A stretch of 40,216 nucleotides of DNA from an uncultured bacterium (GCA_964439775.1 CAYTPF010000001.1:761-40976), one strand, 5' to 3'; counted from the stretch's first letter, positions 3,001 to 39,000 are shown. The notes: a model not told the origin generated them from the letters alone. Made by a program: numbers and translations.

Positions 3001-6000
3001 CGCCATCCACGGAAATTCCGGTTGCTGTTTCGCTTTCCAACGTGAAGAAGTTCTCAGCTGGAATGATGCTTGCTTCTTGTCCGTCATAGGCCCACTCGAG
3101 GCGCATGCGATCACTGCCGTCTTCTTCGAACATTTCCAATTCGAAGGGATACAGACTTCCACTTTGCATCGTGAAGGTGCCTGAACTGCTATACGACTCG
3201 TTATCAGAGGAAACAGACTGGCTCCAGTTATTGAAGACCTCCGTACCCCCGATCGTTAGCCGGGCGCCATCATCATGGTAACCGTGGAAAGTGATCTCTC
3301 CATCAGCGGGCGCCTGAATAAGACCCGTCCACCTTACGGCAATATCACTATATGCACGGGTCAGCGTAATAGTATCGATGCCTTCGCCGAGATTGATGAG
3401 AGAGTAGTCGTCGACACCTGTGAATGTGAATGAGGAGTTGAGATCATCACCGAGGGTTGTGGCGACACCTTTGGTTCCGTCGGCGGAGAAGCGCTGGGCC
3501 CGGATGTCGTAGCTGGAGCCGCCGCTATGGCCGCTGCTGTCCTGCCAGGTGACCACGAAACCACCATCGACGAGGGCGGTAACCGACGGCTCACTCTGGG
3601 TGCTGCTATTATATGTGTTAACCCGGAACTCATCGTTGAACGGGGTTCCATCAGCGTTATAGATCTGGCCACGGATATCTGAGGATCCGTCGTTGTACCA
3701 GGTCACGACGAAACCACCATCGGCAAGCCCGGTTACGGAAGGCGTATATTGATTATTGGAGATATAATCGCTGACAATCGGCATCTCATCGCCGACCGGG
3801 CTTCCGGCGGCATCGTAGCGCTGACCCATGATGGTATATGAGTGGTGTTGGTCGCCGTAGTAGGACGCGTAAGTGACGATAAAGCCGCCGTCACTCAAGT
3901 CTGCAACCGACGGCGCATACTGAGTGTGATAGGTGCCGTCATTGACCCGGAAATCAGACCCGGCTTCTACCGGTGTCGTCAGCGCATCACCATTGGCATC
4001 CTTGGTGGTGAAGATCTGCGCCCGGATATCATCGCTTGAGCCTGTCGTTGCGTCGTCGCCGCTCTTATCATGAGAGCTGCCCTGAGAATCCCGCCAGGTG
4101 ACCACGAACTGGCCGTTACCAAGTCCGGCGACCGAAGGCTCATACTGAGAGCCGGTGTCCGCATCGGCATTGATCAGGAACTCATCGCCCACCTTGACAG
4201 AGTTGGCATCAAAGCGCTGGCCGAAGACATCGACACCGGAGCCCTCACGGGAATCTGTGGCACCATTGTTATCGCGCCAGGTCACGACAAAGCCGCCGTC
4301 ATCGAGACTGGCGATTGACGGATCGTACTGATCGTCGTCAATCGTCGTATGGATCTGGAACTCGCCACCCTGTGGCTCGCCGGAGGCACTGTAGTGCTGG
4401 CCGTAGACACCGTAGCTGCTGCCCGCATCTTGGTACCGCGAGCCCCAGGTGATGACATAACTGCCGTCTTCGAGGCTCGTGACTTCCGGGTTCCTCTGGG
4501 TGTGACCCGTGTGGGTGTTGACCCGGTACTCGCCGCCAATGGGATCGCCGAGAATATTATAGTTCTGGGCATAGACGTCGTCCCGGTTCTCATCGTACCA
4601 GGTGGTGACAAAGTTGCCGTCACCATAGGCGCTCACCGAAGGATTGTGCTGGTCCCCACTGATGTTGGCATTGACCATGAACTCGCCGGTCTCGGTGACC
4701 GAAACCGTCAGTTCAGCGCCGTCGTCAAAACGGAGCATCTCGATGTCATACAGGGTATCGGTACCCTCGTTACCGTCCGCGACATTAAGATCGGTCACCG
4801 TCATCGTGGCGAGATTGATGGCGTAATCAGAAGCGTCCCCAAGGAACGTGGCAACGTCATACCCTTCGCCACCGCGGAGGATGTCGTCACCAAGGCCACC
4901 GCTCAGAATATTGTCGTTGGCATTGCCGAAGATCTCGTTGTCGGTCGCGCTACCGATACCAGTTATTGACAGCTCGCCGCTGAGATACAGCTCTTCGACG
5001 TTGTCCCAAAGGGTCGTCGTCTCGAGCGCCGAGTAGACGGTATCGATGCCACCGTTGGCACGCTCGATAACCGTATCATTGAGGTCGGCTTCGCTGATGC
5101 TGTACGTATCGTTACCGTCGCCACCCTCCAGCATATCCGATCCGGCACCGCCGCTCAGGAAGTCATGCCCGGCGCCGCCCTCAAGCGTGTCGTCACCGAT
5201 GTTGCCGGTTAGGACATCGTTACCGGAACCGCCGACCAGCTGATCATCGCCAGTTGCGCCATACAGATGATCGTTGCCGGTACCACCATCCACATAGACG
5301 CCGGCATCACCCTTGACTTGAACAAAGTCATTGCCGCCACCCAGATCGACCGTCTCAACATTCGTCACCGTCAGCGTATCCCGGGCATCCCCGAAGGTCA
5401 GGGTATCGATGCCGGCACCAAGATCGACATTGAGGCCGAGCTGACCATCGGCCAGGAAGATGTCTTCATTGGCAGCTGTGCCGGTCAGTTCGGCCTGGCT
5501 CGCCGGCGTACCGTCGCTGTCGAACCGTCTGGAGAACACGCCGTAGCTGTGATCATAGCTGCCGGAACTGTTCGGGCTGTCCCTGTAATCGGACATCCAC
5601 GAAACCGCAAATCCGCCATCGGCAAGAGCCGCAATCGAGGGCTGGTTTGAATTGTATGAATTATCGGGATCAACTTCGATCTCGCCGCCGACCTTGGTGC
5701 CGTCCGCATTGAAGACCTGGGCTCTGATATCGTCATTATTGCCGTTGTACCAGACGGCGACAAAGTTGCCGTTGGTCAGCGTGGCAACGTAAGCGTCACT
5801 CTGAGTACTGTTGGTCGTCGAGTTGATCTGGAACTGATCCCCCGACATGGATACGGCGTCTTCGCCTTCAACGTTGCTGGTGGTAAACACCTGGCCGAAG
5901 ACACCCCAACCGCTGGTGTCCGTACCCGGACGGTTGGCATGGGTCGTCTCATCTCCCCAGGTAACGACAAACTGACCGTTGTCGAGCCCGGTGACATCCA

Positions 6001-9000
6001 CTTGGGACTGATTGCCGCTCGTCCAGGTATTGACGGGGAACTCATCACCACGAACCTCACCGTCCGAACCGTAGCGTTGGCCACGAATACCATAGCCAGA
6101 AGTATCGTCGCTATCTTGCGAGGTATTGTCTTGCCAGGTGATGACAAACCCGCCATCCGACAGAGAGGCCACCGCCGGATGGGTCTGCTCTCCTGACGTA
6201 TAGGTATTGACCCGGAACTCACTACCGGAAGGTGTGCCATTAGCATCGTAACGTTGGCCATAAATACCGTAGTCGCTGCTACCCGTATCCTGGTAGCGCG
6301 AGTGCCAGGTGACCACATAGCCGCCGTCAGCCAACGCCGTGACTTCCGGTCCTGTCTGATCGTCGTAAGTCTGGGTATTGATCAGAACTTCCGGACCCTG
6401 AGCAACACCGCTGGCATTATAGAGCTGGCCGCGCACATCCCAGCTCTCTCCACCACCAATCTGATTGTTAGAGCCACTGCTGTCCTGCCAAGTGATGAAG
6501 AAGCCGCCGTTCTCAAGACCGGTAACTTCCGCCCGCTCCTGTTCGTTCCCTGTCCAGGTATTGACCTGGAACTCTTCGCCAAGAGGTTGGCCGCTGGCGC
6601 CATAGCGCTGGGCAAAGACACCGTCACCGGAGCCGTCCTGATTATAGGATTCCCAAGTAACGACATAACCGCCGTCGGTCAGTCCGGCCATGGACGGCTG
6701 CTGTTGGTGGCCTTCAATGTAGGTATTGACCTGGAACTCTTCGCTGTCTGTCGACGTAAACGTGACTTCGGTTCCGTCACCGAAGCGGACGCTCTCAATA
6801 TCTCTGAGCGTATCCGTACCGCCGTCACCGTCTGCGGTGTTGGCGTCGATGATCTGGCTGTTGGTTACGTCGACCCTGTACGCGTCCGCATCACCCTCGA
6901 AGACGGCGACATCGTCACCCTCGCCACCGTCCAGCACATCGTCACCAAGGCCTCCGACAAGCGTATCGTCGCCAGCCTGACCCTGCAGATGATCGGCACC
7001 GTCGCCACCCGACAAGACATCACCACCAACGCCGCCAATCAGAAGGTCATCGCCGTCATCGCCGTAGACCGATGAGCCAATCTTTGCCGTGCCGGAGACG
7101 ACAATCTCCGCATTAAACGTATCCTGCGTAACACTGGCACTGCCCAGGGTTACGGTCTGAACCGCGTTATCACTGAGCGTTCCACCATCAGTTGCGGTTG
7201 CAGTCAGAGCAAACGACGTACCCTCACCCGCGCTCAGAATAACTTCGTTAACACCGCCGCCGGTCGTCGCCGTTACGTCGAGCCCGGCTCCGTTCACGGC
7301 CGACACCAACTGTTCTCTGACATCGGTCATGGTGTCGCCGGCGACCGCCGTGTACGTCACATCCTGATCATCAAGGGTCAGCGTGTAGCTATCGCCCGCT
7401 TCAATGTCGCCGAACAGACGAACCGCTTCGAGGGTGGAGCCGGTGATATCCGCTGACTGGGCCGAAGAAGCAAACGTGACGGGGGCACCGCTGGCATCGA
7501 AACGGTGGCCGTAAATGCCGTAGCCATTGCCATCCTGTCCGGCCGATTCCCAACTGACGAGGAAGCCGCCATCCACAAGAGCCGTCACCGACGGATCCTG
7601 CTGGCTTCCCTGGGTCTCTGCATTGACCCGGAACTCACCACCGACCTCGACACCTTGGCTGTTGTAAAGCTGGCCATAGACGCCGTAGCCGCCGCCGTCC
7701 TGCATGCTCGACCAGGTTACGACAAAGCCCGCATCCGTCCCGGTCAGGCCGGTGACGTCGTGCATCTTCTGGTCGCCGGCAATCTCTGTATTGGCCAGGA
7801 ACTCACCGCCGACCTTGTTGCCGTTCTGATCAAATACCTGACCCTGAATGTCGTAACCGCTGCCGTCATTGCTGGTGGTGTTGTCTTCCCAGGTAACGAC
7901 GAAGCCGCCGCCGTCCAGGCGGGCAACCTCAGGCTGATAACTTGAGCTGTGCTGACTGACTTCGAACTCGCCGCCTTGTGGGCTGCCGTCCCGGTCAAAG
8001 ATCTGGGCGAAGGTCTTGTTGTGGCTGTCGGAATACCACGTCACCACAAACCCGCCACCATCCAGATCCGTAACGGATTGCTGATACTGGTTGCTGGAAG
8101 TCGTGGTATTGACCCGGAACTCATAGCTCTCGGCTTCGCCTTCCGCATCATACATCTTGCCGTAGACGCCCCAGGTGTTGCTCGAGTCCTGGTAGTAGGA
8201 ATCCCAGGTGACAACGAAGCCGCCGTTATCAAGCGCCGCAATCGAGGGCTCCTGCTGATCCCGATTGGTGTACGTGTTGACCTGGAACTCGTCACCCTTC
8301 GCCGTTCCGTCGGCACCGAACCGCTGACCGAAGATACCGTTGTAGCTATCGTTCTGGCCCTGCTCTTGATAGGTGCCCTGCCAGGTGACGACAAAGTCAC
8401 CGCTCTTCAGTGCCGTGACACTCGGTTTAGTTTGCTGTGCGCTCGAGTTCGAATTGTACGTATGGACCTGGAACTCACCGCCCAGCATCGCGCCGTCGGC
8501 ACTATGGAGTTGCCCGTAGATCCCGTATCCGCTGCCGTCCTGGCTCTCGGATTCCCAAGTCGTCACAAAATTGCCGTCTTCCAGACGCGTCGTCGACGGG
8601 TTCTGCTGATCGCCATCAGTATAGGTGTTGATCTGGAACTCGTTGGCGCCCGATACCATGGACGTCAGCACCAGTTCGCTGGCGCTATCGCCACCGCCGG
8701 CCGTGACCATGGATGCCGCCTGGGCATCGGTATTGATTGCGCCCACCAGGCCGGCCCGGACCTCGACAAGCGTGTCACCCGGCTGTGTCTCATAGCTGAC
8801 GTCATGGCCGTTAACGGTGACCGTGTAGATATCCCGGACCTCACCCGAAAGCGTGATCTTGCTGACCTGGCTCGCCACCACGGTTCCGTCGATCGTCACC
8901 ATGTCATCGCCGTCACCTGCATTGACGATCTCGGTATCGCGGACGATCGCCGAATCGTCACCATCACCGAGAGTGATGGTGTCGTTGCCGGCGCCAAGAT

Positions 9001-12000
9001 CGATCAGCAGGTTGGTCGCACTCGCAACCGCCTCCGTATCGTCACCGTCCGTTCCGGTGTACAGCGTCATCTCCGCCGGCGTCGCACCCGGCGTATCGCC
9101 GGTCATGCTGACATCGAAGCGCTGACCGTAAATACCGTAACCCGAACCATCCTGACCGCTGGATTCCCAGGTGACCATGAAGCCGCCATCGGCAAGAGAG
9201 GCTACCGACGGGTCGACCTGCTGGCTCGAAATATAGGTGTTGGCCATGAACTCGTCGCCAACCGGCGTGCCCGTGATGTCGAACAACTGACCGCGAATAT
9301 CCGAGCTGGATCCACCGTTCTGGCCACTGTCGTCCTGCCAGGTGACAACAAAGCCAGCGTTCGTGCCCTCAAGAGCCGTCACCGACGGCAGGTACTGGGA
9401 ACTGCTGGTCCAGGTGTTGATCCGGAAATCCCCACCCAGGGCCTCCGGCGTTGTTAACGCATCACCATTATCGTCAACCGTGGTAAAGATCTGGCCGCGA
9501 ACGTCGTAGCTGGAACCCGTTGTGCTGTCGTTATCGTTCGTGTCGTGGTAGCTGCCATGGTCATCACGCCAGGTAACGATGAACTTACCATTGCCGAGAT
9601 CAGCCATCGCCGGCTCGTACTGCGCGCCGCTGTCCGCATCGGCATTGACCAGGAAGTCCTCGCCGACCTTCTCACCCGCCGCATCAAAGCGCTGACCAAA
9701 GACATCAATACCGCTGCCGCCATCATGGCTGCCGCCATTGTTATCACGCCAGGTGACGACAAAGCCGCCGTCCGACAGAGAGGTAATCGCCGGATCATAC
9801 TGACTGCCCGACGTATAAGTGTTCACCAGAATCTCGTCGGCGGACACAATCGGCGTATCGACCGGATTGCCGTCCGCATCCGTCACGCTCACAATCTTGG
9901 CGAAGATGTCGTGGCTGGAGCCGCCACGTGAACCCGCGTTGCCGTCGTCATCGCGCCAGGCCACCGCAAAATTACCATCCGCAAGTGCCGTGATCGAACC
10001 TTCGTACTGGCTGCCGGAGGTATAGGTATTGACGATAAACTCACTGCCCTGCGCCGATCCCGTTGCATCATAGCGCTGACCAAAGACGCCGTAGTCCCAG
10101 CCACCGGCGTCATAGAGACCGTCCCAGGTAATGACGAAGCCGCCGTCCTCGAGCGCCGTGATATCTGGCCGCTGCTGATAATAATAAGTCTTCGTATTGA
10201 CCTGGAAGCTCTCGCCCGAGGGCAATCCGGAAGGTCCGTACACCTGGGCGTAGATGCCCTGCTGACTACCATCCTCGCCATAGGAATCCCAGGTCACCAC
10301 GTAGCCGCCGTCGGCAAGGCCGGTAACCGCCGGGTTGAGCTGGTCATTCATGCCATAGGACGTATTGACCTGGAACTCTTCCAGGGTCTCGGTCGTATAA
10401 CCGGCGGTCTGCGTCGTCGAGCCTGTATCGGTCGTCGTCGTCGTCGTCGAACCGCTGCCCGATCCCGCACCTTGCGCCGCCAGAGCATCTACCGCGTCCG
10501 CTTGCGCCGAAACCGCAGCCGCATCAACCGCTTCACCCGCCTGCGCCGCGCCACTTTGTTGCGCGGCAACGCCGCTCGCCGAAAGCGCGGCATCGGGAGC
10601 CGATACTTGATAGTCGGTCACCGTGACCAGGCCGCTGAGCGTCGTCACAGCACTATCCGCCGTGTGTGTCAGGGTCGTGTCAGTACCATCGTCCCCAATC
10701 GCGTAGTCGCCGTCATCAAACCGCAGCGTCTCGATGCCATAGAGCGTATCGGCATCGCCGGCGCTATCCGTCACCGTCAGGACGCCGGCCTCGACCGTCA
10801 CCGTGTAGTCCGTGAAGTTCCCGCCGAAGATCGCGATATCGGCGTCCGCACCCCCAGCAAGGATGTCACGGCCTTCACCACCAATCAGGGTATCGTCGCC
10901 GTCACCGCCGACCACCGTGTCGTCGCCGCCGCCACCACGGACGAAGTCGTTACCATCACCGCCCTGGAGAATGTCATCGCTGTCGCCGCCGTAAAGGGCA
11001 TCGTTCCCGGCTTCACCGTCAACCCGCGCACCAAGCGCATCACCGGCGCTGAACACCTGGGTCGCATTTAGTGCGCCAGCACCCGTCGCATCCACCGACA
11101 GACTGAACTGCTGCGGCTCACCATTGGCATCAAAGCGGCGGGCGTAGATATCTGTGCTTGAACCGCCACGGTCGCCGCCGCTGCCATCATGATCGGCCCA
11201 GGAAATCAGGAAGCCGCCGTCGTCAAGCCTACTGATTGTCTGCTCGTTCTGCGTCCCCGAAAGATGCTCATCGTTGGCGACAATCTCATCACCAACCTTC
11301 TGAGGCGTGCCGCTGACCGGATTACCATTAGCATCCGTGGTCGAGAAGGCCTGGCCGTAGACGTCTCCATTCCAGTAATACCAGGCAACGGCAAAGCCTT
11401 CGTCTGTAGCCGTAACCTCGGGATATGCCATATGGATGTCCATCGAGGTATTGATCCGGAACTCGTCACCGTCCGGGGCCCCGGTTGCGTCGTAGCGCTG
11501 ACCGAAGACACCGTAATGGGAGCCGCCATCAACGCTCGAATGGGTCGAATGGCTGGTCCAGGTGACAACGAAACCGCCGTCATCAAGCGAGGCAACCGAC
11601 GGGTATTCCTGGGTTCCCGATTTGGAATTGATGACCGTACCGTTGCTATTCTGCGTTGCGCCGTCGCCGCTGGCGTTGACCAGAAACTCGTCAATGCCCA
11701 CAACCGGTGTGTCTACCGGGCCGTTACTGCCATCCGTGGTCGTGAATGTCTTGGCAAAAATATCGTGACTGGATCCCTCGCGACCATCCGCACTGCCGTC
11801 TGAATCTTCCCAGGTCACCACAAAGCCATCACCGTGCGCGGCTATCGAGGAGTGGTACTGGGTCCCGCCGGCGTAGCTGTTGACCAGGAACTCGGCACCC
11901 ACTTCCGTACCCGTCGCGTCATAGCGCTGACCGTACACATCCGTGCCACTTCCTGGGTCTGCATTATTGCTGCCTTCGTTATCACCCCAAAGGATGACAA

Positions 12001-15000
12001 ACCCGCCGTCCTGCAACGCCGTGATCTGAGGATCATTTTGCGTGCCGCTGACGGCCGTGTTGACCAGGAACTCATCGATCTGGGTGATCGGCGTATCAAC
12101 AGGCGTTGCGCCGTCGTGCGTCGTGAAGATCTTGGCGCGGATATCTGTGCTGCTGCCGTCCCCGTGACCGCTGTCGTCCTGCCACGTCACCACGAAGCCG
12201 TCACCATGCGGGGCTACCGATGCATAATACTGAGTGCTGCTTGTATAGCTGTTGACCATGAACTCATCGCCAACCGCCTGTCCGCCCGCATCGTAGCGCT
12301 GACCGAAGACACCGCTGCTATCTTGAGCACCACTCCCATGCCAAATAACAACGTAGCTACCATCGCTCAGCGTTGTGCTTGATGGATCGTTCTGACTGCT
12401 CGATACGTAGCTGTTGACCCGGAACGCACCGGCGCCGGCCTCATTGGCCCGCACAATAATGTCATCAGAGCCGTCACCGATCATCGCCGTGACCGCTGCC
12501 GACACATCGGCATCGCCGTTGATGGCATCAATCAGGCCGGCGCGCACCTCGGCGACATCGTCGCCGGCCGCAGCCGTATAAGTCACCGTCGTGCCGTTCA
12601 CGGTCGCCGTGAAGTCTTCACCCTCGGCAACCGTGCCGCTGATCGTCATCCGGTCCGTCTGGTGCGCGAAGTTCTCACCGCTAACAACCGCCAGGTCGTC
12701 GCCACCACCGAGGTTCACTTCTTCGACATTGGAGACCGTGATCGCATCTGCCTGATCGCCCAAGTCGACCCGGTCGATACCGTCACCAAGATCGATGCTA
12801 ACGCCGCTCTGGGCCGCATCGAAGACCAGTATCTCGTCCGCCGAACCGCCAATCAGCTTCGCTTCCGTCGCCTTACTGCCGTCGGCGTTGAAGTGCTGGC
12901 CGTAAATGCCGTAGGAACTGGAGTAATCCTGATAACGCGATTCCCAGGTGACGACGAAGCTGCCATCGTCGAGAGCCGTCACCGACGGATCTTGCTGATC
13001 ATGGCTCGTATAACTATTAACCCGGAACTCAGAGCCCTGCTCGGCACCGGTGGCATTGAACACCTGACCATAAATACCGTAGCCCGAACCATCCTGGTTG
13101 CTGGATTGCCAGGTGGCAACAAAGCCACCCTCACTCAACGCCGTCACCGACGGATAGCTCTGGGTGCTGCTCGTATAACTGTTGACCCGGAACTCGGAGC
13201 CCTGCTCGGTACCATCGGCATTGAACATCTGCGCATAGACGTCCGCACGTCCACCGTCGTACCAGGTGACGACAAACGCATCATCGGCAAGCGCCGTCAC
13301 CGACGGATAGTACTGCTCACTGGACGTGGTATCGGTGTTGACCAGGAACTCACCATCACTGTGCGGCGTGCCGTCAGCTGCGAAGCGCTGACCGTAGATG
13401 CCGTACTGGCTGCCATCCTGGCCGTTCGACATCCAGGTGACGATGTAACCGCCGTCACTGAAACTGGTCACCGACGGTTGTTGTTGATGGTTATTGGTAT
13501 GGGTGTTGACCTGGAACTGACCGCCCGCAACCGCTGTCGGCGTATCCACACCCGTTGTCGTAAACTGCTGGCCGAAGACAGCGTAGTTGCTGCCATCGGT
13601 GAACCCGGCGTCTGTCCGGGTCGTATTGCCCGCCTCATCGCCCCAGGTCACAACAAAGTTACCGCTGCCAAGATCCGTCACCGATGGATGATGTTGGTCA
13701 CCCGACGTGTAACTGTTGACAGCAAACTCATCGCCCAACATCTGTCCATTGCTATCAAAACGCTGGCCAACGATGCCGTAGCCAGCATCATCGTAATCGG
13801 CAATGTCGCCATCTCGTGTGCTGTTCGATTCCCAGGTAACGACGAAGCTACCGTCGCTCAGCCCCGTAACCGATGGCTCGCTTTGGTGATTATGCGTATC
13901 GGTATTGACCCGGAACTCCTCACCAAGGGCTTCGCCGCCGTTGGTATAGAGCTGGCCGTAGGTGTTGTAATAGCTCCCGTCGTCGTCCTGGTTATAGGAT
14001 TGCCAGACCACCACATAACCGCCGCCAGCCAGCTTATCGACCGATGCATTGACCTGATGGTTGTGTGTAAAGGTGTTAACCCGGAACTCGTCTTCCGCAT
14101 CACCGGAGAAAGTCAGCTCGCCGTCATTGAACTGGATCGTCTCGACGTCCTTACCCAGCGTGTCGGTGCCATCATCACCGTCGGCAAGATCACCGTCAGT
14201 AATCGTCCGGTTGGTCATGTCGAGGCGGTAGTCCGACATCTCTCCGGAATAGAGAGCAACGTCATCTCCGTCGCCACCGGCAATCATGTCATCACCGGCA
14301 CCACCGATCATCACATCATCACCGGAACCGCCCTGGATCAGGTCGTCACCAATGCCACCATCAATGCGGTCGTCGCCACTACCGCCCTGAAGCTTGTCCT
14401 CACCAGCGTCACCTTTGAGAACGTCATCGCCACCCGAACCGGCAATCCGGTCATCACCATCACCACCGGACAGGTTGTCCGCAGCACCGCCGCCTATCAG
14501 TGCATCGTCACCATCGCCGCCGTAGACGGCGCCGAAGGTATCGGTGCCGCTGAGCTCATGGCTGACCGTCGCCGCATTGTCATCCGTGCTCGCCAGCGAT
14601 GTCGTGTTCTGGGTGCTGCCGCTGGCCGCAAACGTCGCTCCCGCCGTCGTCGCCGTCAGGATGATCTGGCCGTCTTCGGAACCCGCGCTCGCCGTCACCG
14701 TTGTGCTGATCGTAGCGTCGGCATCAAGACTGGTTAGTAAGCTGTCGCGAATGTCGGCAATGCTCTCACCCGTCGAGACCGTGTGGGAGACACTGTCGCC
14801 ACCAATGCTGAGTGTGTAGCTGTCACCCGCCTCGATGGTACCAGCAACCGTCACCTGGCTGACCTGGTTCACATTGGCACTGGTGTCACTGACCGTCGTT
14901 ACCGTCGCGCTGTCCGCCGGTGCAACCGACGTCTGCAGGGCTGTCCCCGCATCAACGGTGCTGAGAACGATCGTCGAAGCACCCTCGCCTTCGGCCCTGA

Positions 15001-30000: not shown

Positions 30001-33000
30001 CCGTCGTGCCGTTCACGGTCGCCGTGAAGTCTTCACCCTCGGCAACCGTGCCGCTGATCGTCATCCGGTCCGTCTGGTGCGCGAAGTTCTCACCGCTAAC
30101 AACCGCCAGGTCGTCGCCACCACCGAGGTTCACTTCTTCGACATTGGAGACCGTGATCGCATCTGCCTGATCGCCCAAGTCGACCCGGTCGATACCGTCA
30201 CCAAGATCGATGCTAACGCCGCTCTGGGCCGCATCGAAGACCAGTATCTCGTCCGCCGAACCGCCAATCAGCTTCGCTTCCGTCGCCTTACTGCCGTCGG
30301 CGTTGAAGTGCTGGCCGTAAATGCCGTAGGAACTGGAGTAATCCTGATAACGCGATTCCCAGGTGACGACGAAGCTGCCATCGTCGAGAGCCGTCACCGA
30401 CGGATCTTGCTGATCATGGCTCGTATAACTATTAACCCGGAACTCAGAGCCCTGCTCGGCACCGGTGGCATTGAACACCTGACCATAAATACCGTAGCCC
30501 GAACCATCCTGGTTGCTGGATTGCCAGGTGGCAACAAAGCCACCCTCACTCAACGCCGTCACCGACGGATAGCTCTGGGTGCTGCTCGTATAACTGTTGA
30601 CCCGGAACTCGGAGCCCTGCTCGGTACCATCGGCATTGAACATCTGCGCATAGACGTCCGCACGTCCACCGTCGTACCAGGTGACGACAAACGCATCATC
30701 GGCAAGCGCCGTCACCGACGGATAGTACTGCTCACTGGACGTGGTATCGGTGTTGACCAGGAACTCACCATCACTGTGCGGCGTGCCGTCAGCTGCGAAG
30801 CGCTGACCGTAGATGCCGTACTGGCTGCCATCCTGGCCGTTCGACATCCAGGTGACGATGTAACCGCCGTCACTGAAACTGGTCACCGACGGTTGTTGTT
30901 GATGGTTATTGGTATGGGTGTTGACCTGGAACTGACCGCCCGCAACCGCTGTCGGCGTATCCACACCCGTTGTCGTAAACTGCTGGCCGAAGACAGCGTA
31001 GTTGCTGCCATCGGTGAACCCGGCGTCTGTCCGGGTCGTATTGCCCGCCTCATCGCCCCAGGTCACAACAAAGTTACCGCTGCCAAGATCCGTCACCGAT
31101 GGATGATGTTGGTCACCCGACGTGTAACTGTTGACAGCAAACTCATCGCCCAACATCTGTCCATTGCTATCAAAACGCTGGCCAACGATGCCGTAGCCAG
31201 CATCATCGTAATCGGCAATGTCGCCATCTCGTGTGCTGTTCGATTCCCAGGTAACGACGAAGCTACCGTCGCTCAGCCCCGTAACCGATGGCTCGCTTTG
31301 GTGATTATGCGTATCGGTATTGACCCGGAACTCCTCACCAAGGGCTTCGCCGCCGTTGGTATAGAGCTGGCCGTAGGTGTTGTAATAGCTCCCGTCGTCG
31401 TCCTGGTTATAGGATTGCCAGACCACCACATAACCGCCGCCAGCCAGCTTATCGACCGATGCATTGACCTGATGGTTGTGTGTAAAGGTGTTAACCCGGA
31501 ACTCGTCTTCCGCATCACCGGAGAAAGTCAGCTCGCCGTCATTGAACTGGATCGTCTCGACGTCCTTACCCAGCGTGTCGGTGCCATCATCACCGTCGGC
31601 AAGATCACCGTCAGTAATCGTCCGGTTGGTCATGTCGAGGCGGTAGTCCGACATCTCTCCGGAATAGAGAGCAACGTCATCTCCGTCGCCACCGGCAATC
31701 ATGTCATCACCGGCACCACCGATCATCACATCATCACCGGAACCGCCCTGGATCAGGTCGTCACCAATGCCACCATCAATGCGGTCGTCGCCACTACCGC
31801 CCTGAAGCTTGTCCTCACCAGCGTCACCTTTGAGAACGTCATCGCCACCCGAACCGGCAATCCGGTCATCACCATCACCACCGGACAGGTTGTCCGCAGC
31901 ACCGCCGCCTATCAGTGCATCGTCACCATCGCCGCCGTAGACGGCGCCGAAGGTATCGGTGCCGCTGAGCTCATGGCTGACCGTCGCCGCATTGTCATCC
32001 GTGCTCGCCAGCGATGTCGTGTTCTGGGTGCTGCCGCTGGCCGCAAACGTCGCTCCCGCCGTCGTCGCCGTCAGGATGATCTGGCCGTCTTCGGAACCCG
32101 CGCTCGCCGTCACCGTTGTGCTGATCGTAGCGTCGGCATCAAGACTGGTTAGTAAGCTGTCGCGAATGTCGGCAATGCTCTCACCCGTCGAGACCGTGTG
32201 GGAGACACTGTCGCCACCAATGCTGAGTGTGTAGCTGTCACCCGCCTCGATGGTACCAGCAACCGTCACCTGGCTGACCTGGTTCACATTGGCACTGGTG
32301 TCACTGACCGTCGTTACCGTCGCGCTGTCCGCCGGTGCAACCGACGTCTGCAGGGCTGTCCCCGCATCAACGGTGCTGAGAACGATCGTCGAAGCACCCT
32401 CGCCTTCGGCCCTGACCATGGAACTCACATCCGGGTCGGCACCGATGGAACCCATCAGGCCGGCGCGGACGGCTGCAGCCGTATCACCCGCCTGAGCCGT
32501 GTAACTCACCGTATGTGTATCGGTGCCATCCGAGACGCTGAGGCTGTATTCCTCGCCCTGCGTAATGCTGGTCAGGTCAATCCGGTCAATCTGGTGCAGG
32601 CTGGCCACCGCATCGTGCAAGACGTCAACCGTCACCGTCGCATCATCGAGACCGCCCGCATTGTTAAACGCTTCAGCCGAAGCGAAGAAGGGGTTGGTCG
32701 AACCATCGACGCCAAAGCGCTGACCATAAATACCGTAACCCGAGCCGTCCTGGCCGCTGGATTCCCAAGTGACCATGAAGCCGCCGTCTTTGAGCGCCGC
32801 CACCGACGGATCATACTGATCGCTCGAGGTGTAGGTGTTGACCTGGAACTCGTCGCCGAAGGTGTTGCCCTGCGCGTCATAACGCTGACCAAAGATACCG
32901 TAGCTTGAGCCATCCTGACCGCTGGACTGCCACGTGACGACAAAGCCGCCGTCCAGCAAGGCCGTGACGTCTGGCTTTGTCTGCTCACTCGAGGTGTAGG

Positions 33001-36000
33001 TGTTGGCCTGGAACTCATTACCGTCCGTGCTGCCATCGGCGTTGAAGCGCTGGCCGTAGATGCCGTAGCCCGAGCCATCCTGACCGCTGGATTCCCAGGT
33101 AATGACGAAGCCGCCGTCGGCAAGGTCGGCAATCGACGGGTTGTACTGATCGTTGTTCGTATAGGTATTGACCTGGAACTCGGTGCCATCCGCATTGCCG
33201 TCGGCATCGAAGCGCTGGCCGTAAATACCGTAGTTGCTGTTGCCATTACCATTGCTGTCGAGGTCATCCTGGTAACGGCTCTCCCATGTGACCACAAAGC
33301 CGCCATCCTGGAGCGAGGCTATCGATGGGTCTTCCTGATTATTATACGTCTCCGTATTAATCTGGAAGGCATTACCCGCCTGTTCGCCATCCACATCAAA
33401 GCGCTGGCCGTAGACACTGTAACCGTCATCATCCCCGTAAGATGAACTTCCCACCGTCCAGGTTGTGACAAAGCCGCCGTCCTTAAGACCCGTAATCGAA
33501 GGCTGGGACGGTGAATAGTTCGCATCCGCAACGACAAACTCGCTGCCCGAAGGCGTGCCGTCCGCATCATAGCGCTGGCCGCGAAGGTCGTTATTGTTGC
33601 CGCTGTACCAAGCTGCGACAAAACCGCCGTCCTCAAGCGCCGTCACCGATACACTGTTCTGAGAGGAGTTGGTCAGGGTATTGACCCGGAACTCATCACC
33701 GATAGCATTGCCGCTGGCGTCATAACGCTGGCCATAGACACCTTCACCAGAACCGTCTCGGCCACTCTCATCGGTCCACATCACCACCACGCTGCCGTCA
33801 TTCAGCGTCGTCGCCGAAGGATCTTTCTGCGTGCTCGACGTGTACGTATTAATCTGAAACTCTTTCTGGACACCCGCTTCGCCGGCCCGGATCACGATCT
33901 CGTCGGCCGCGTCACCTGCCATGACAACGACCGCATCGGAAGCCCCGGCATTCAGCGCATCGATCAGGCCGGTCCGAACCTCGGCAATGCTATCGCCATC
34001 CTCGACCCGGTAGCTCACCTTCGTCGCATTGACCGTGACCGTGTAAACATCACCCGTCTCAATCGTGCCGGACAGCTTAACCACGTCCGTCTGGTGCGCC
34101 AGGTTGTCGCCGGTAACGACCGCCATATCATTGCCGTCACCGAGGTCGACCGTCTCCGTATTGGCCACCGCAATGCTGTCGTCGCCGGCGCCAAGCGTCA
34201 GCGTATCGATGCCGTCACCGAGATCGATGGCAAGACCGTCCTGAGCCGCATCAAAGATCAGCGTCTCGTCACCCGAACCGCCAATCAGCTTGGCATCACT
34301 GGCCTTCGTGCCGTCGGCATTGAAGTGCTGCGAGAAGATGCCCCAGTCGCTGGAGCCATTGTTATCTTGATACTCAGATTCCCAAGCGACAACAAAGCTG
34401 CCGTCGGCAAGCGCTGTCACCACCGGATCTTGCTGCGACTGATACGTCTCCGTGCTCACCTGGAACTCATCGCCAACCGGGACACCGCTGGTGTCATAGC
34501 GCTGGGCGAAGATCCCATATTCGTGACCGTCTTGATTGTAGCCTGCCCAGGTGACAACAAAACCGTCGCTGCCCAGGCTGGTCACCGTCGCGTCATACTG
34601 CGTACTACTTGTGTACGTATTGGCCTGGAACAAATCACCGTTCGGGACCGGCGTATCATCATCCGTTCCCGAAACCATCGTGAACTTCTGACCAAACACC
34701 GCCCAGTCGCTGTTATCGAACCCGGAACCCAGCTCATTCGAGCGGGAGTTGGTCGCCTCATCACCCCAGGTGACAACGAACTCGCCGTTGTCGAGGCCGG
34801 CCACCGAGGGCTGATGCTGATCGCGAACTGTCCGGTCCGCATTGACCATAAACTCGTCGCCAACCGTGTTGCCCGAAGCATCGAACTGCTGGCCGTAAAT
34901 GTTATAATAACCGCCGTCGCCATCCTGATTATAGGATTCCCAGACCTTCACAAAGCCGCCATCCGAGAGCGATGCCAAAGCCTCACCTGAGTTGGCACCC
35001 GGGTTATACTGATTGCTTGAGGTATAGGTGTTGACCTGGAACAGATCCCCGTCCGTCGACGGCGTATCGCCACCCACCGTCGTAAACTTCTGACCAAATA
35101 CCGCCCAATCGCTGTTGTCGAAACCGGAGCCCAGCTCGCTTGAGCGCGAGCTTGTGCTCTCGTCACTCCAGGTGATGACAAACTCACCATTATCGAGACC
35201 GGTTACCGACGGGTCATGCTGATCACGGATCGTCCGATCCACATTGGCCATGAACTCGTCGCCAACTGAACCGCCATTCGCATCAAAACGCTGACCATAG
35301 ATATTATAGTAATGGCTGTCGCCATCCTGGTAGTCCGACTCCCAGGTAACGACAAAACCGCCGTCCGACAGCGAGGCGATCGAAGGATCACTCTGGGTCT
35401 GATAGGTCGTGGTGTTAACCCGGAACTCTTCGCCGAGCGGCGCGCCGCTTGGCGTGAAGACCTGACCGCGGATGTCCGCGCCACTGCCACCATCATGACC
35501 ACTGTCGTCCTGCCAGGTCACCACATAGTTGCCATCGGCAAGACCCGTGATCGACGGATCATGCTGGGAGGAAGGCTCCCAGGTATTGACCTGAACCTCT
35601 TCCGCCTCGCTCGACAGCGTCAGTTCGCCGTCACTGAAGCGAACCGTCTCGATGCCATCCAGCGTATCCGTGCCGTCGTCACCATCCGTTGTATTGATAT
35701 CAGTGACCGTGCCGGCATCCGTATCCAGGCGGTAATCCGACATCTTCCCGGAGAACTCGGCAACGTCACTACCGTCGCCACCCTTCAACGTGTCGTCCCC
35801 GGCGCCGCCGATCAGGACGTCATCACCACGGCCACCCTTCAGCGTGTCGTTACCGCCAGCACCGTCGAGGATATTGGCCCCGCCGCTGCCTTCAATCACG
35901 TTCGCCGCGTCGTTACCCGTACCAGAGACCGCATCCGGACCGCTGAGATCCAGCTCTTCGATATTGTCACTCAGGGTGTAACTCTCACCCGTGCTGATCA

Positions 36001-39000
36001 CACGGTCTGCACCCTCACCCGTCAGTTCCGTCACCACATCGTCGGCACTGTTGACCGTATAGGTGTCGTCGCCGTCGCCACCAATGAGCGTATCCGCACC
36101 AGCGCCGCTGGTTATCCGATCATCACCGCTGCCCGCCGTAACGACAGCACCGGTCTCACCCTCGATCGTCAGCGTGTTGTCGCCTTCGCCAAGGTTGACC
36201 GTCTCCACATTCTCGACACGAAGCTGATCATCGCCGGCACCAAGCGTCAGGCTATCCGTACCCTCACCAAGATCAACCGCACGCTCATTCATCGTCTGAC
36301 TGAAGGTCACCGCTTCATCGGCAACGCCACCGGTAAAGCGGATCGTCGACAGCGGCAGGCCGTTGGCATCATAACGCTGACTGTAGATGCCTGAACCACT
36401 GCTGTCCTGTCCGTCCTCCGACGTCCAGGTGACAACAAAACCACCGTTATCGAGTGCCGCAACCGACGGATCATGCTGAGAAGAGTTGGTATAGCTGTTG
36501 GCCATGAACTCGTCGCCAACCGGCGTACCCGTACCATCAAACATCTGACCACGGATATCCGCACCGGAACCGCCATCATGGCCACTGTCGTCACGCCAGG
36601 TGACGACAAAACCGCCGTTATCAAGGGTTGTCACCGACGGCTGATACTGGGAACCCGACGTGTAATCGTTGATACGGAAGTCGCCGCCCAGGACCTGTGG
36701 CGTCAGGATCAGATCGCCATCATCATCGGTCGCAGTCGTCGTAAAGATCTGACCGCGGACATCGTAACCGGATCCTGTCGCGCTGTCGTTGTCGTTCGTA
36801 TCGTGTGAGCTGCCACTGTCATCACGCCAGATCACCACGAACGTGCCATTGCCAAGATCGGCCATCGCCGGCTCATACTGCGAGCCGCTGTCCGCATCGG
36901 CATTGATCAGGAAGTCGTCACCAACCTTCTGACCCGCCGCATCGAAGCGCTGACCAAAGACATCAATACCACTGCCACCGTCATGACTGCTGCCCTTGTC
37001 ATCACGCCAGGTGACGACAAAGCCACCGTCTGAGAGCGATGTAATCGCCGGGTCGTACTGGCTGCCCGACGTATAGGTGTTCACCAGGACTTCATCTGCG
37101 TCAACAATCGGCGTATCGACCGGATTACTGCTCGCATCCGTCGTCGTGAAGGTCTTAACGAAGATGTCGTTGCTGCTGCCGCCTTGGCCATCATTACTAC
37201 CGTCACTATCGTACCAAGCCACAGCAAAACCGTCACCGTGGGCAACGATCGCCGGATCATACTGCTCGCCCGAGACATTCGTATTGACGAGAAGTTCCTC
37301 GCCAATCATCTCGCCATCCACATCGAAGCGCTGAGCCCGAATGTCGTAGCTAGAACCGGCATCATGGCCGCTGTTATCACGCCAAGTGATGACAAACCCG
37401 CCGTCGTTCAGCGTTGTCACCGAGGGCTCATACTGATGGCTCGAGGTATAGGTGTTGACCCGGAACTCATCACCGATCAGCGCACCCGTCTCATTGAACA
37501 GCTGAGCTCGGATGTCGTAATTAGAACCGCCGCTATGGCCGCTGCTGTCCGCCCAAGTCACCACATACTTACCGCCGGCAAGGCCTGTCACTGAAGGCGT
37601 ATACTGCGTACCTGAGACGTACGTATTAACCTGGATCTCGCCGTCGTTATCGTCAGAGACTTCCAGTCGCTGACCGTCGGCAAAGGCAAGCGTCTCGACA
37701 CTCGTTAGGCTGTCCGTGCCGTCATCGCCGTTCGTTGTATCGACATCAGTGACCGTAATCGTCGTGCCATCTGCACTGGTCGTGACCCGGTAATCAGAGA
37801 TGTCGCCGGCGAACGTCGCCGTATCCGAGCCCGCGCCGCCATCAATCGTATCGTCACCGGCGCCGCCCGTTATAACGTCACTGCCCGAGCCCGCATTAAT
37901 CTGATCAACACCTTGGCCACCGTCCAGTGTGTCCATGCCAGACCCAGCGTTCAGGACATCGTTACCAGAGCCGCCAACGAGCGTATCCGAGCCAGAGCCG
38001 CCAATTAGGATGTCCTCGCCGGAACCGCCGTCCAATAAGCTGCCCGCGTTGTTCGCAAACAGGCGGTCGTCGCCACCCTCGCCAAAGACGTTGCTCGCCT
38101 CATCGCCCGCGACCGTAACAACATCAGCACCGCCACCCGCGTACACATACTCCGTGCCAGAAACAAAGAAGGTGCTGTTGATGCTTCCGGAAGCGGATGG
38201 CAATGCACCACCCCAGTCACCTTCAAAATTAATCGTCGTATCAATGCGTGTGCTGTATATCGAGCCGCTGTTGAAGTCGCCTGTGCTGCCAGTATTGGTG
38301 AAGTACTCGGCGCTCAATCCGCTGATATAATTATTGCTCTGGATCGTAATGAGGTCATCTACCGAAGAGCCAGTCAGTGTAATCCTGCCATCAAATGTAG
38401 ATGTCACCGACAAATCGCCATCATCGAACGAGAGCGTTTCCACCTCCAAAATTGAGTCAGTGCCCAAAGAAGGATCGATGTTCGCAATTGTCAGAGTGCC
38501 GTAATCATCGACGTTAAAGGTATAATCGGACTTATTGCCGGCATAAATTAGCGTATCTGAACCAGCCCCACCCGTAATCATATCGTTTCCGCGGCTCGCG
38601 GTTATAGTGTCGTCGCCAGCGTTCCCATCTATAACATCATCGCCATCACCGCCATTGATCGCGTCATTACCCAATCCGCCATCGATGAAGTCATTTCTCG
38701 TACTGCCAAGGAAGGTGTCGTTCCCGGATCCACCTTCGATACTCTCGATATTAACGAATGTATCCGAACCTATGTCAGTCCCGGTCGCACTACCCGTTGA
38801 CATATCAACATCGATGCTTGTGGAAATATCCCGGTAATCGGCGGTATCAAATCCGTCACCACCATCAATTTGATCATTTCCAAGACCACCACTGAAGTAG
38901 TCGTCTCCACCCGCCCCCATAAGAGTATCGTTACCGTCGGAGCCTTGAAGAATATCGTCGCCTTCACCACCATCCAGGAAGTCGTCGCCACCTGAGCCGG

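What the first reader, a model, noticed from the sequence alone, without database searches (positions are those of the whole stretch)
3470..37635. About 60-aa repeat of no family I can name, always in groups of exactly seven: 18 putative beta-propellers in the window
About 70 % of each unit consists of a repeat with the approximate consensus (E/D)-F-x-(V/I)-N-(T/S)-(Y/W/T)-T-x(2,3)-Q-x(2)-P-(S/A)-(V/I)-(T/A)-x-L-x-(D/N)-G-(G/S)-(F/Y)-V-(V/I)-(T/V)-W-x(5-25)-(Y/D)-(G/D)-(I/V)-(Y/F/R)-(G/A)-Q-(R/L/Q)-(F/Y)-(D/N/S)-x(2)-G-x(3)-G. I counted blade starts in all nine blocks of a unit, and each block has exactly seven repeats before a non-repeat linker or RTX module interrupts. A fixed count of seven in nine independent blocks is what a closed seven-bladed toroid would require. 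An open solenoid would not constrain the number. The P-S-V-x-x-L-x-D-G-G-F-V-V-x-W core weakly resembles TolB/PD40-type blades (PF07676), but the repeat is longer and I cannot assign it to a named family from memory. A string of propellers separated by Ca-binding RTX hinges would be an unusual extender for an RTX adhesin, since known ones use Ig-like or cadherin-like domains.
Basis: partly seen in the sequence, partly recalled or inferred. Interest (0 to 1): 0.75.

Follow-up and report, generated by a model that had tools for sequence, protein, structure and literature searches.

The report
Eighteen seven-bladed propellers in giant protein
The window lies inside one enormous calcium-binding surface-protein gene that strings together 18 ring-shaped seven-bladed propeller domains (9 distinct, duplicated exactly); the domain family is very common in bacteria but has no model in the domain libraries I could search.

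Summary
The whole window is one stop-free frame on the minus strand (13,405 codons, open at both ends). A blade HMM finds 126 blades in 18 blocks of exactly seven, at the stated coordinates (3470-37645). Only nine blocks are distinct, because window 3360-20761 and 20775-38176 are 100% identical (a 17,415-nt in-frame tandem copy).

AlphaFold2 models one block at pLDDT 92.4 and pTM 0.92 with 7 x 4 strands. The best solved matches are seven-bladed propellers: CylK (TM 0.78) and the lectin CV39L.

Pfam, NCBIfam and a profile search of PDB sequences give no family for the repeat, including PD40. The family is nevertheless huge: 67,174 clusters at 50% identity. Contiguous blade runs in relatives come in sevens (7, 14, 21, 28, 35, 42, 49).

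The domain occurs alone behind a signal peptide, inside flagellins, and with T9SS, SLH and RTX parts. I therefore read it as an extracellular, probably ligand-binding, module.

- Only 6 of 9 linkers per unit carry RTX runs.
- Poly-propeller giants of this family are common in metagenomes.
- The array sits inside a split PA14 domain.
- A 98-99% identical contig seems to hold only one unit.

The fold is known. The sequence family and this RTX architecture appear undescribed.

The parts
2..40216 (-). Single stop-free reading frame of 13,405 codons, an internal part of a giant RTX-type protein. Both protein ends lie outside the window.
   Evidence: RTX repeats PF00353 at E 9.5e-85, 1.6e-23 and 1.9e-79 in three pieces.
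20775..38176 (-). Tandem unit, N-terminal copy (about aa 681-6480): nine propeller blocks B1-B9 with their linkers.
   Evidence: 100% identical to 3360-20761 at an offset of 17,415 nt, which is 5,805 codons and in frame.
3360..20761 (-). Tandem unit, C-terminal copy (about aa 6486-12285): blocks B1'-B9'.
   Evidence: Parts of it recur at 98.2-99.4% identity in two public contigs.
36353..37645 (-). Propeller B1 (aa 858-1288), 7 blades. Exact copy B1' at 18938-20230.
   Evidence: Blade HMM; coordinates.
34304..35605 (-). Propeller B2 (aa 1538-1971), 7 blades. Copy B2' at 16889-18190.
32696..33865 (-). Propeller B3 (aa 2118-2507), 7 blades. This is the block that was modelled.
   Evidence: AF2 pLDDT 92.4, pTM 0.92. 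Foldseek top hits are seven-bladed propellers.
30287..31510 (-). Propeller B4 (aa 2903-3310), 7 blades. Copy B4' at 12872-14095.
28529..29845 (-). Propeller B5 (aa 3458-3896), 7 blades, the most divergent block. Copy B5' at 11114-12430.
26516..27796 (-). Propeller B6 (aa 4141-4567), 7 blades, 66% identical to B1. Copy B6' at 9101-10381.
24893..26059 (-). Propeller B7 (aa 4720-5108), 7 blades. Copy B7' at 7478-8644.
22919..24160 (-). Propeller B8 (aa 5353-5766), 7 blades. It was modelled together with its upstream RTX roll. Copy B8' at 5504-6745.
   Evidence: AF2 of aa 5240-5770: pLDDT 86.5, pTM 0.83.
20885..22105 (-). Propeller B9 (aa 6038-6444), 7 blades. Copy B9' at 3470-4690.
24317..24478 (-). 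Example of an RTX nonapeptide run followed by a cap, directly upstream of a propeller (before B8, aa 5247-5300). Similar runs precede B1 (37814-38083), B2 (35756-36082), B4 (31667-31936), B6 (28298-28432) and B9 (22289-22702). Each has a copy 17,415 nt lower.
   Evidence: Motif positions. In the AF2 model, strands fall every 9 residues (5-7, 14-16 ... 59-61), which is a beta-roll.
33866..34303 (-). Example of the non-RTX linker type (B2 to B3, aa 1972-2117): a degenerate roll plus an unassigned domain of about 85 aa ('GTIETGDVYTVTVN...VRTGLIDALN...'). The same type lies between B4/B5 and B6/B7. Further copies of the small domain follow B3 and B7.
   Evidence: Sequence. No Pfam family even at E <= 10.
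38168..38323 (-). N-terminal third of a PA14 domain (aa 632-683), ending exactly where the tandem array begins.
   Evidence: 58% identical to the start of the intact PA14 of P0126, E 1.4e-13.
3041..3340 (-). Remainder of the same PA14 domain (aa 12293-12392), starting just after the array ends.
   Evidence: PF07691 at E 1e-18. The two halves joined align without a break to intact PA14 domains at 52% identity (P0126, and L004 14285-14755).

Best explanation
Each block of about 390-440 aa is an autonomous, closed, seven-bladed beta-propeller.

Fold. A blade is strand A (PSVTAL), B (GFVVTW), C (GIYGQRF) and D (GxEFRV). Every block starts with a lone D strand (EFxVN) and ends after a C strand, so the N-terminal strand completes the last blade. 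This is velcro closure.

Family. The domain belongs to a very large extracellular family with no model in the libraries searched here.

This protein. Nine diverged copies alternate with Ca2+-binding RTX beta-rolls (6 linkers) or small unassigned domains (3 linkers) to form a 5,805-aa unit. The unit is present twice and is inserted in frame into a PA14 carbohydrate-binding domain.

Proposed mechanism (inferred). The protein leaves the cell unfolded through a type I secretion system. The RTX rolls, and possibly the propellers, fold on meeting extracellular Ca2+. The result is a long beads-on-a-string surface fibre, whose propellers act as multivalent ligand-binding heads, most likely for glycans or other surface polymers, rather than as inert spacers or enzymes.

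Shown here: the reading frame, the blade counts, the fold, the family size, the extracellular contexts and the split PA14. Inferred: the secretion route, Ca2+-dependent folding and ligand binding.
For: Blade count and fold:
- 126 blades in 18 blocks of seven.
- AF2 pLDDT 92.4, pTM 0.92, 28 strands, with the N-terminal strand 4-6 left over.
- Foldseek against solved structures: CylK seven-bladed propeller E 3e-16, TMq 0.78. Lectin CV39L TMq 0.72 and TMt 0.78. PL42, GH145 and PL24/25 propellers also match. CylK and CV39L are described as seven-bladed in PMC8916777 and PMC11186620.

Quantisation in relatives:
- 111 of the 120 closest relatives have exactly 7 blades.
- In 150 multi-domain relatives, contiguous runs are 7 (358 times), 14 (16), 21 (7), 28 (4), and 35, 42 and 49 once each.

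Extracellular module:
- Stand-alone proteins of about 415 aa carry a signal peptide directly before the first EFRVN.
- Fusions confirmed by Pfam: flagellin_N-propeller-flagellin_C, T9SS sorting tail, SLH, dockerin, PKD and cadherin spacers.

Symmetry and context:
- All seven blades keep the same polar residues (N8, Q15, D25, D39, Q48, R49 of the blade). That fits repeated structural or binding sites rather than one asymmetric active site.
- Viral structural look-alikes are heads of fibre and structural proteins.
- RTX repeats and PA14 place the protein in the type I secretion surface-protein class.
Against: - No ligand, no Ca2+ site and no secretion signal has been shown.
- Neither protein end nor any neighbouring secretion gene is in the window.
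- Model coordinates could not be inspected, so ring closure is inferred from strand order, pTM and superposition on closed propellers.
- Many of the top structural neighbours are enzymes (CylK, lyases, sialidases), so catalysis is not excluded.
- The second unit may be an assembly product. A 98.5-99.4% identical contig appears to carry only one unit.
- A PA14 domain split by about 11,600 aa may simply be inactive.
Confidence: 0.6

Rival explanations
1. The propellers are enzymes, for example polysaccharide lyases or glycosidases, or CylK-like alkylating enzymes that use the adjacent Ca2+ beta-roll. The giant protein would then be a multi-catalytic surface machine.
For: - The top Foldseek hits are enzymes: CylK, PL42 rhamnose-glucuronate lyase, GH145, sialidases and ulvan lyases.
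- CylK also has a Ca2+ beta-roll N-terminal to a seven-bladed propeller (PMC8916777).
- Some relatives give one-blade matches to GH43: P0002 at 37.1 bits and P0019 at 44.1 bits against a cut-off of 32.2.
Against: - Identity to these enzymes is only 7-17%, and an A1 profile finds none of them by sequence.
- The roll-plus-propeller model does not superpose on whole CylK: TMt stays at 0.48-0.49 with rmsd about 20 A.
- In most RTX-bearing relatives the RTX lies after the propeller, not before it.
- Conservation is the same in all blades, with no blade-specific catalytic set.
- Nine to eighteen tandem catalytic domains in one chain would be unusual.
Confidence: 0.15
2. The propellers are inert structural beads. 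They serve as spacers that lengthen and stiffen the fibre or form a coat, as BIg domains do in known RTX adhesins. Binding would be left to other parts such as PA14 and the cadherin-like domains downstream.
For: - The modules repeat many times along the chain, as extender domains do.
- Relatives alternate the propeller with cadherin or PKD domains, or stack up to 49 blades with no spacer.
- The conserved residues are those expected of a structural repeat.
Against: - The same domain occurs alone as a small secreted protein and as the exposed middle domain of flagellins. A mere spacer makes little sense in either place.
- The nine blocks have diverged to 36-66% identity, with variable-length loops between strands B and C. 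This is what diversified binding surfaces look like.
Confidence: 0.2
3. There are really 9 propellers here, not 18. On this view the second, 100% identical 17.4-kb unit is an assembly artefact, or a very recent duplication present only in some strains.
For: - There is not one mismatch in 17,402 nt.
- On a 541-kb ENA contig, 98.5-99.4% identical where it overlaps the window, the sequence 13.8 kb upstream of the matching part has no similarity to the window. That leaves room for only one unit.
Against: - The period is an exact multiple of three and the junction keeps the frame.
- The ENA assembly has many frameshifts in this gene and could itself have collapsed the repeat.
- Tandem copy-number change is common in giant repeat genes (general knowledge).
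Confidence: 0.3
4. The repeat forms an open solenoid or a propeller with a different blade number.
For: None found beyond the fact that no experimental structure exists.
Against: AF2 gives 28 strands with high confidence. The best superpositions are on seven-bladed rings. Blade runs come in multiples of seven.
Confidence: 0.02

Closest known systems
CylK (PDB 7fh6, 7roo), the Friedel-Crafts alkylating enzyme of cylindrocyclophane biosynthesis
   Same: It is the best structural match of the propeller (E 3e-16, TMq 0.77-0.78). It is a seven-bladed propeller preceded in the chain by a Ca2+-binding beta-roll with a small sheet cap. Its structure paper reports Ca2+ sites at each blade junction (PMC8916777).
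   Different: - Identity is only 16-17%, and the profile search does not find it by sequence.
- The predicted roll-propeller arrangement does not superpose on it (TMt 0.49, rmsd about 20 A).
- CylK is a single soluble biosynthetic enzyme, not a repeated module of a giant surface protein.
- Its catalytic residues were not tested here.
Seven-bladed propeller lectins BP39L and CV39L (PropLec7C, PDB 6gxs)
   Same: Same size and fold (TMq 0.72, TMt 0.78, rmsd 3.6 A). It is a bacterial tandem-repeat lectin that binds fucose and mannose (PMC11186620). It serves as a model for how a symmetric propeller can act as a multivalent binder.
   Different: Identity is 10-11% and no sequence relationship was detected. 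The sugar-binding residues were not compared. These lectins are stand-alone proteins of about 39 kDa.
RTX adhesins of the LapA, MpIBP and FrhA type
   Same: Giant size, many RTX Ca2+-binding repeats, a PA14 domain near the C-terminal part, and a repetitive middle region.
   Different: The repeated middle modules are seven-bladed propellers with RTX rolls, not BIg or cadherin-like sandwiches. No BIg domain was found in the window. The N-terminal retention module, the C-terminal signal and the transporter genes are outside the window. The PA14 domain is split by the array.
Other poly-propeller giant proteins, such as the RCC1-repeat giants of Oscillospiraceae (bioRxiv 10.1101/2023.11.21.568195)
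   Same: Very long bacterial proteins built largely from seven-bladed propeller repeats and predicted to be extracellular.
   Different: They belong to a different, named repeat family (RCC1, PF00415), have no RTX modules and come from a different phylum.

Membership tests
Seven-bladed beta-propeller (fold class) | Seven four-stranded antiparallel blades arranged in a ring | tested here: met
   AF2 model at pLDDT 92.4 and pTM 0.92 with 28 strands in 7 groups. TM 0.72-0.78 to solved seven-bladed propellers.
Seven-bladed beta-propeller (fold class) | Ring closed by a velcro strand shared between the two chain ends | tested here: inconclusive
   Every block begins with a lone D strand (EFxVN) and ends after a C strand. 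In the model, strand 4-6 has no blade of its own. The model coordinates could not be inspected, so the contact itself was not seen.
PD40 / TolB-type repeat (PF07676) | Match to the Pfam model | tested here: not met
   No PD40 hit for the window at E <= 0.01, nor for relatives at E <= 1.
Glycoside hydrolase family 43 (PF04616) | Five-bladed propeller matching most of the 288-position model | tested here: not met
   No hit in the window. Some relatives match one blade only, profile positions 113-177 of 288. This domain has seven blades.
CylK / BrtB family | Detectable sequence similarity to CylK | tested here: not met
   Neither phmmer nor the A1 profile against PDB sequences finds CylK at E <= 1.
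CylK / BrtB family | [quoted passage not shown] | tested here: not met
   The roll-plus-propeller model aligns over 616-626 columns, but TMt stays at 0.48-0.49 with rmsd about 20 A. AF2 inter-domain geometry is itself uncertain.
CylK / BrtB family | Catalytic Arg105, Tyr473 and Asp440 | not tested
   No residue-level structural alignment was available.
RTX protein / type I secretion substrate | Tandem GGxGxDxUx nonapeptide repeats | tested here: met
   PF00353 at E 9.5e-85, 1.6e-23 and 1.9e-79. 35 motif matches per unit, in six runs. The model shows a beta-roll.
RTX protein / type I secretion substrate | C-terminal secretion signal and nearby ABC transporter, MFP and TolC genes | not testable with these tools
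   The C-terminus lies about 4.3-5.1 kb beyond the window (L004). No transporter gene appears in the 21-kb loci fetched.
RTX adhesin (LapA / MpIBP type) | Extender made of tandem BIg or cadherin-like beta-sandwich domains | tested here: not met
   No BIg or cadherin family in the window. Propellers fill that position. Cadherin-like domains appear only downstream in the related contig.
RTX adhesin (LapA / MpIBP type) | Ligand-binding domain, such as PA14, near the C-terminal end | tested here: inconclusive
   PA14 is present but split by the array of about 11,600 aa. A second, intact PA14 lies downstream in the relative.
PropLec7C lectins (CV39L / BP39L) | Sequence family IPR016285 and conserved sugar-binding sites between blades | not tested
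   Only fold similarity was measured (TM 0.72-0.78, 10-11% identity).

The most novel reading that the evidence does not exclude
This repeat defines a very large, still unnamed family of Ca2+-dependent, multivalent ligand-binding propellers that bacteria of many phyla mount on whatever surface scaffold they have: RTX fibres, flagellar filaments, T9SS cargo or S-layer anchors. In this protein an 18-propeller array is nested inside a PA14 domain that still folds, so the array would form a closed protein loop of about 11,600 residues displayed from a lectin base.
Probability: 0.15. Interest if true: 0.8.

Novelty: new variant of a known kind. Interest (0 to 1): 0.55.

Why it matters
A family with about 67,000 clusters at 50% identity that has no Pfam or NCBIfam model and no solved relative detectable by sequence is a sizeable blind spot in annotation. 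Giant marine surface proteins, some flagellins and many secreted proteins currently read as 'hypothetical' or merely 'calcium-binding'.

A model for the family would annotate tens of thousands of proteins at once. If the propellers are lectin-like, they would point to a widespread, modular way for bacteria to stick to polymers or hosts. For RTX biology, it would add a second kind of repeated module, a propeller plus a roll, to the BIg extender paradigm.

The strict quantisation in sevens, up to 49 blades in one run, is also a clean natural example for studies of how propellers evolve and fold.

Tried and rejected
1. PF26862, listed among the precomputed Pfam hits of some relatives, turned out to be Phage_T4_Y10B with only a 'faint' hit. 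It is not a family for this repeat.
2. Exact 42-mer searches of genome contigs and metagenome contigs found nothing, so the source genome is not identified.
With a single block it returned only two loci.
4. The third homologue search, with the window's N-terminal 640 aa, returned only generic RTX proteins and no near-identical fragment. It could not locate the gene's upstream end directly. Copy number in the ENA contig was instead inferred from L005.
5. The idea, from memory, that the linker domain of about 85 aa is a 'flagellin hook IN' motif got no Pfam support, even at E <= 10.
6. A Pfam score comparison of spliced against unspliced PA14 was uninformative (74.4 against 71.9 bits). BLAST against intact PA14 homologues settled the question.
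7. The CylK-like two-domain arrangement was tested and not found.
8. The genomic context of a stand-alone homologue (hrcA-grpE-dnaK-dnaJ, alanine dehydrogenase) gave no functional hint.
9. Literature searches found no description of this repeat or of propeller strings in RTX proteins.

Full report
**What is in the window.** The plus strand holds only short open frames, at most 784 codons. One minus-strand frame is free of stops over the entire window, 13,405 codons from window 40216 down to 2, and runs off both ends. The window is therefore an internal piece of one giant gene.

Window 3360-20761 is identical, base for base, to 20775-38176. The period is 17,415 nt, exactly 5,805 codons, so the frame is kept. 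Pfam and NCBIfam recognise only RTX nonapeptide repeats (PF00353; E 9.5e-85, 1.6e-23 and 1.9e-79 in three pieces) and one PA14 domain near the C-terminal side.

**Checking the observation.** I built a 58-position HMM from 62 blades and scanned the whole translation. It finds 126 blades at 40-94 bits each. They fall into 18 blocks, each with exactly seven blades, and there is no isolated blade in any linker. Twenty shuffled copies plus the reversed protein gave five weak hits altogether.

Because the two units are identical, there are nine distinct blocks (63 blades) plus an exact copy. The nine are 36-66% identical to each other, with B1 and B6 the closest pair. Blades make up 64% of a unit.

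**Fold.** I modelled block 3 (aa 2116-2510) with AlphaFold2 on an alignment of the nine window blocks and 41 single-domain relatives. It gave pLDDT 92.4 and pTM 0.92. The model is all-beta, with strands grouped as seven sets of four.

Within a blade, the strands are:
- A: Q-x-x-P-S-V-T
- B: F-V-V-T-W
- C: G-I-Y-G-Q-R-F
- D: x-x-G-x-E-F-R

The sequence block begins with a lone 'EFQ' strand (residues 4-6) and ends after a C strand. The N-terminal strand is therefore the missing D strand of blade 7, the usual velcro closure. This last step is inferred from strand order, because the coordinates could not be inspected.

Foldseek against the PDB puts CylK first (7fh6, 7roo; E 3e-16, TMq 0.77-0.78, 16-17% identity). 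Next come the PL42 lyase FoRham1, Dfer_1899, GH145 enzymes, sialidases, ulvan lyases and the lectin CV39L (TMq 0.72, TMt 0.78, rmsd 3.6 A). CylK and CV39L are described as seven-bladed propellers in their papers (PMC8916777; PMC11186620).

**Is the family named?** Not in the libraries I could search:
- Pfam-A gives no hit to the repeat in the window, nor in relatives apart from scattered sub-threshold or one-blade matches (GH43, CopC, DUF5122). There is no PD40 hit.
- NCBIfam gives only RTX-related models.
- phmmer and a 50-sequence profile against all PDB sequences give nothing below E 0.38.
- The PF26862 tag seen in precomputed lists is a faint hit to a phage family and is spurious.
- I found no paper describing the repeat or propeller strings in RTX proteins.

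CDD, SMART, ECOD and the newest InterPro could not be queried.

**How common it is, and whether seven is a rule.** The word-indexed search returned more than 5,170 proteins at E <= 1e-5. The exhaustive profile search of 1.84 billion cluster representatives found 67,174 at E <= 1e-3, 48,875 at <= 1e-10 and 25,571 at <= 1e-30.

Of the 120 closest relatives, 111 have exactly seven blades. The exceptions are 6, 8, 11 or 12, and several of these lie on short contigs.

In the 150 top multi-domain representatives, contiguous blade runs are 7 (358 times), 14 (16), 21 (7), 28 (4), and 35, 42 and 49 once each. Runs of 1-6 also appear. I attribute these, untested, to divergent blades missed by a model trained only on the window.

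This series is better evidence for a closed seven-fold ring than the nine window blocks. Those are paralogues with some blade-position correspondence: 25 of 63 best matches fall on the same blade position, against 9 expected by chance. Overall blade identity is flat at 44-46%.

**Context of the domain elsewhere.** Many relatives are proteins of about 415 aa with a signal peptide followed at once by the first EFRVN strand. Pfam confirms fusions in several forms:
- as the middle domain of flagellins (P0041: Flagellin_N 4-142, propeller 195-584, Flagellin_C 594-678; also P0014);
- with T9SS sorting tails (P0060, P0019);
- with SLH (P0059);
- with dockerin (P0287);
- alternating with PKD (P0244) or cadherin domains (P0245).

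Only 31 of the 150 multi-propeller representatives have five or more RTX motifs, and 83 have none. Source names span Nitrosomonas, Chlamydiae, Coxiella, Actinomycetota, Bacteroidota, Anaerolineae, Hyphomicrobiaceae and Vibrio. The domain is thus a promiscuous extracellular module. The RTX-spaced string seen here is one of several string architectures.

**Linkers.** In each unit, canonical RTX runs precede B1, B2, B4, B6, B8 and B9. Each run is followed by a cap of about 40 aa (DY...V-T-D...DG-T-D-T-L...IE-x-L-x-F-x-DG).

The other three linkers (B2/B3, B4/B5, B6/B7) hold a degenerate roll and a domain of about 85 aa. That small domain also follows B3 and B7, and has no Pfam match even at E <= 10.

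The AF2 model of aa 5240-5770 (pLDDT 86.5, pTM 0.83) shows a regular beta-roll with a strand every nine residues, then the cap, then the propeller. CylK remains the top hit for this model, but TMt stays at 0.48-0.49 with rmsd about 20 A. The CylK-type packing of roll on propeller is therefore not reproduced. In most RTX-bearing relatives the RTX follows rather than precedes the propeller.

**Where the array sits.** Just upstream of the first unit, aa 632-683 read like the start of a PA14 domain. Just after the second unit, aa 12293-12392 are the rest of one.

Joined in silico, the two pieces align without a break to intact PA14 domains. They are 52% identical over 164 aa to P0126 and 52% over 166 aa to a second PA14 downstream in the related contig L004. 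The N-piece alone matches P0126 at E 1.4e-13.

In P0126 the sequence runs '...NSNF|AVRWTG...'. In the window it runs '...NSTF|[about 11,600 aa]|AVRWTG...'. The whole propeller array is therefore an in-frame insertion into a PA14 domain. Whether that PA14 can still fold is unknown.

**Relatives of this very gene.**
- A 7.9-kb contig of a MAG labelled 'Micrococcales bacterium isolate RS404' is 98.2% identical to window 10441-18352. That taxonomic label is probably a binning error for such a short contig.
- A TARA protein fragment is 100% identical to part of the C-terminal region.
- A 541-kb ENA contig is 98.5-99.4% identical to window 1-12928. The gene there is broken by frameshifts.
- In that contig the gene continues 4.3-5.1 kb beyond the window's low end, with more RTX, a second PA14 and cadherin-like domains. 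Another giant cadherin/RTX gene follows.
- The sequence 13.8 kb upstream of the matching part (L005) has no similarity to the window. This leaves room for one unit only. The duplication is thus either strain-specific or collapsed or expanded in one of the two assemblies.

**Interpretation.** The structural part is well supported: nine distinct propellers, 18 in the window as assembled, each a closed seven-bladed ring from an undescribed but very abundant family.

The functional part is inference. Four observations favour a multivalent binding head over an enzyme or an inert spacer:
1. Every context is extracellular.
2. The domain occurs alone and on flagella.
3. It is multiplied many times within one chain.
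4. Conservation is the same in every blade.

Fold-level neighbours include lectins, carbohydrate-active propellers and the head domains of viral fibres, which fits the same reading only by analogy. Secretion through a type I system and Ca2+-triggered folding follow from the RTX repeats and from established knowledge of RTX proteins. Neither was tested here.

**Verdict.** The corrections concern PD40, the independence of the nine blocks, the RTX 'hinges', and how rare the architecture is. The fold is known. The sequence family and the propeller-plus-roll RTX architecture appear undescribed in the sources I could search. I rate it a new variant of a known kind, of moderate interest.

Noticed in passing
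window 38168-38323 and 3041-3340 (minus strand; aa 632-683 and 12293-12392): A PA14 domain is split in two by the whole array of about 11,600 aa. The two halves, joined, align without a break to intact PA14 domains (52% identity), and the break lies exactly at '...STF | AVRWTG...'. The propeller array is an in-frame insertion into PA14.
   Followed up: partly
window 3360-20761 = 20775-38176: This is a perfect (100%) in-frame tandem duplication of 17,415 nt. A 98.5-99.4% identical 541-kb ENA contig (ERZ28548074 grub_3__contig_9980_pilon; L004, L005) seems to have room for only one unit. Copy number is therefore either variable or an assembly issue.
   Followed up: partly
window 33866-34303 (aa 1972-2117). 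Similar linkers between B4/B5 and B6/B7; more copies at aa about 2540-2740 and 5110-5240.: A recurring domain of about 85 aa ('G-T-I-E-x-G-D-x-Y-T-V-T-V-N-G...V-R-x-G-L-x-x-A-I-N...V-T-A...I-x-L') has no Pfam match even at E <= 10. It is a second unassigned module of this protein.
   Followed up: partly
P0041 and P0014 (relatives): These flagellins have their variable middle domain replaced by this seven-bladed propeller (Flagellin_N 4-142, propeller 195-584, Flagellin_C 594-678). The propeller would decorate the flagellar filament.
   Followed up: partly
Stand-alone relatives P0012, P0009, P0043, P0046, P0049, P0099 and others; also P0042, P0083, P0116: The single-propeller proteins end in one of two conserved short tails, '(I/L)VPVEL-x-x-F-x-V-E' or 'GDLIFK(N/D)GF(E/Q)', right after the last blade. 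Their meaning is unknown; a sorting or anchoring signal is one possibility.
   Followed up: no
L002 = PBWE01000012.1, whole contig (7,912 nt): This contig is 98.2% identical to window 10441-18352 but is binned in a MAG labelled 'Micrococcales bacterium isolate RS404'. An RTX giant gene in an actinobacterial bin looks like a binning error.
   Followed up: no
L004 18794-21257 and L005 1-13268 (ENA contig around the related gene): The related gene is flanked by further very large RTX and cadherin-like genes. One is 2,511 aa or more and carries Cadherin_4/5, Laminin_G_3 and RTX. The locus looks like a cluster of giant surface-protein genes.
   Followed up: no
window about 27800-28100 (aa about 4040-4140), before B6; copy 17,415 nt lower: A low-complexity stretch rich in A, Q, S and T ('...AAQQSGAAQAGEAVDAAAVSAQADAVDALAAQGAGSGSGSTTTTTTDTGSTTQT...') lies between an RTX cap and propeller B6. 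It is the only clearly disordered-looking linker in the unit.
   Followed up: no
plus strand, e.g. 12383-14734 and 29798-32149: Long plus-strand open frames (up to 784 codons; 691 aa from the first start codon) lie opposite the giant gene and repeat with the 17,415-nt period. They look like shadow frames of a G+C-rich repeat gene, not genes.
   Followed up: no
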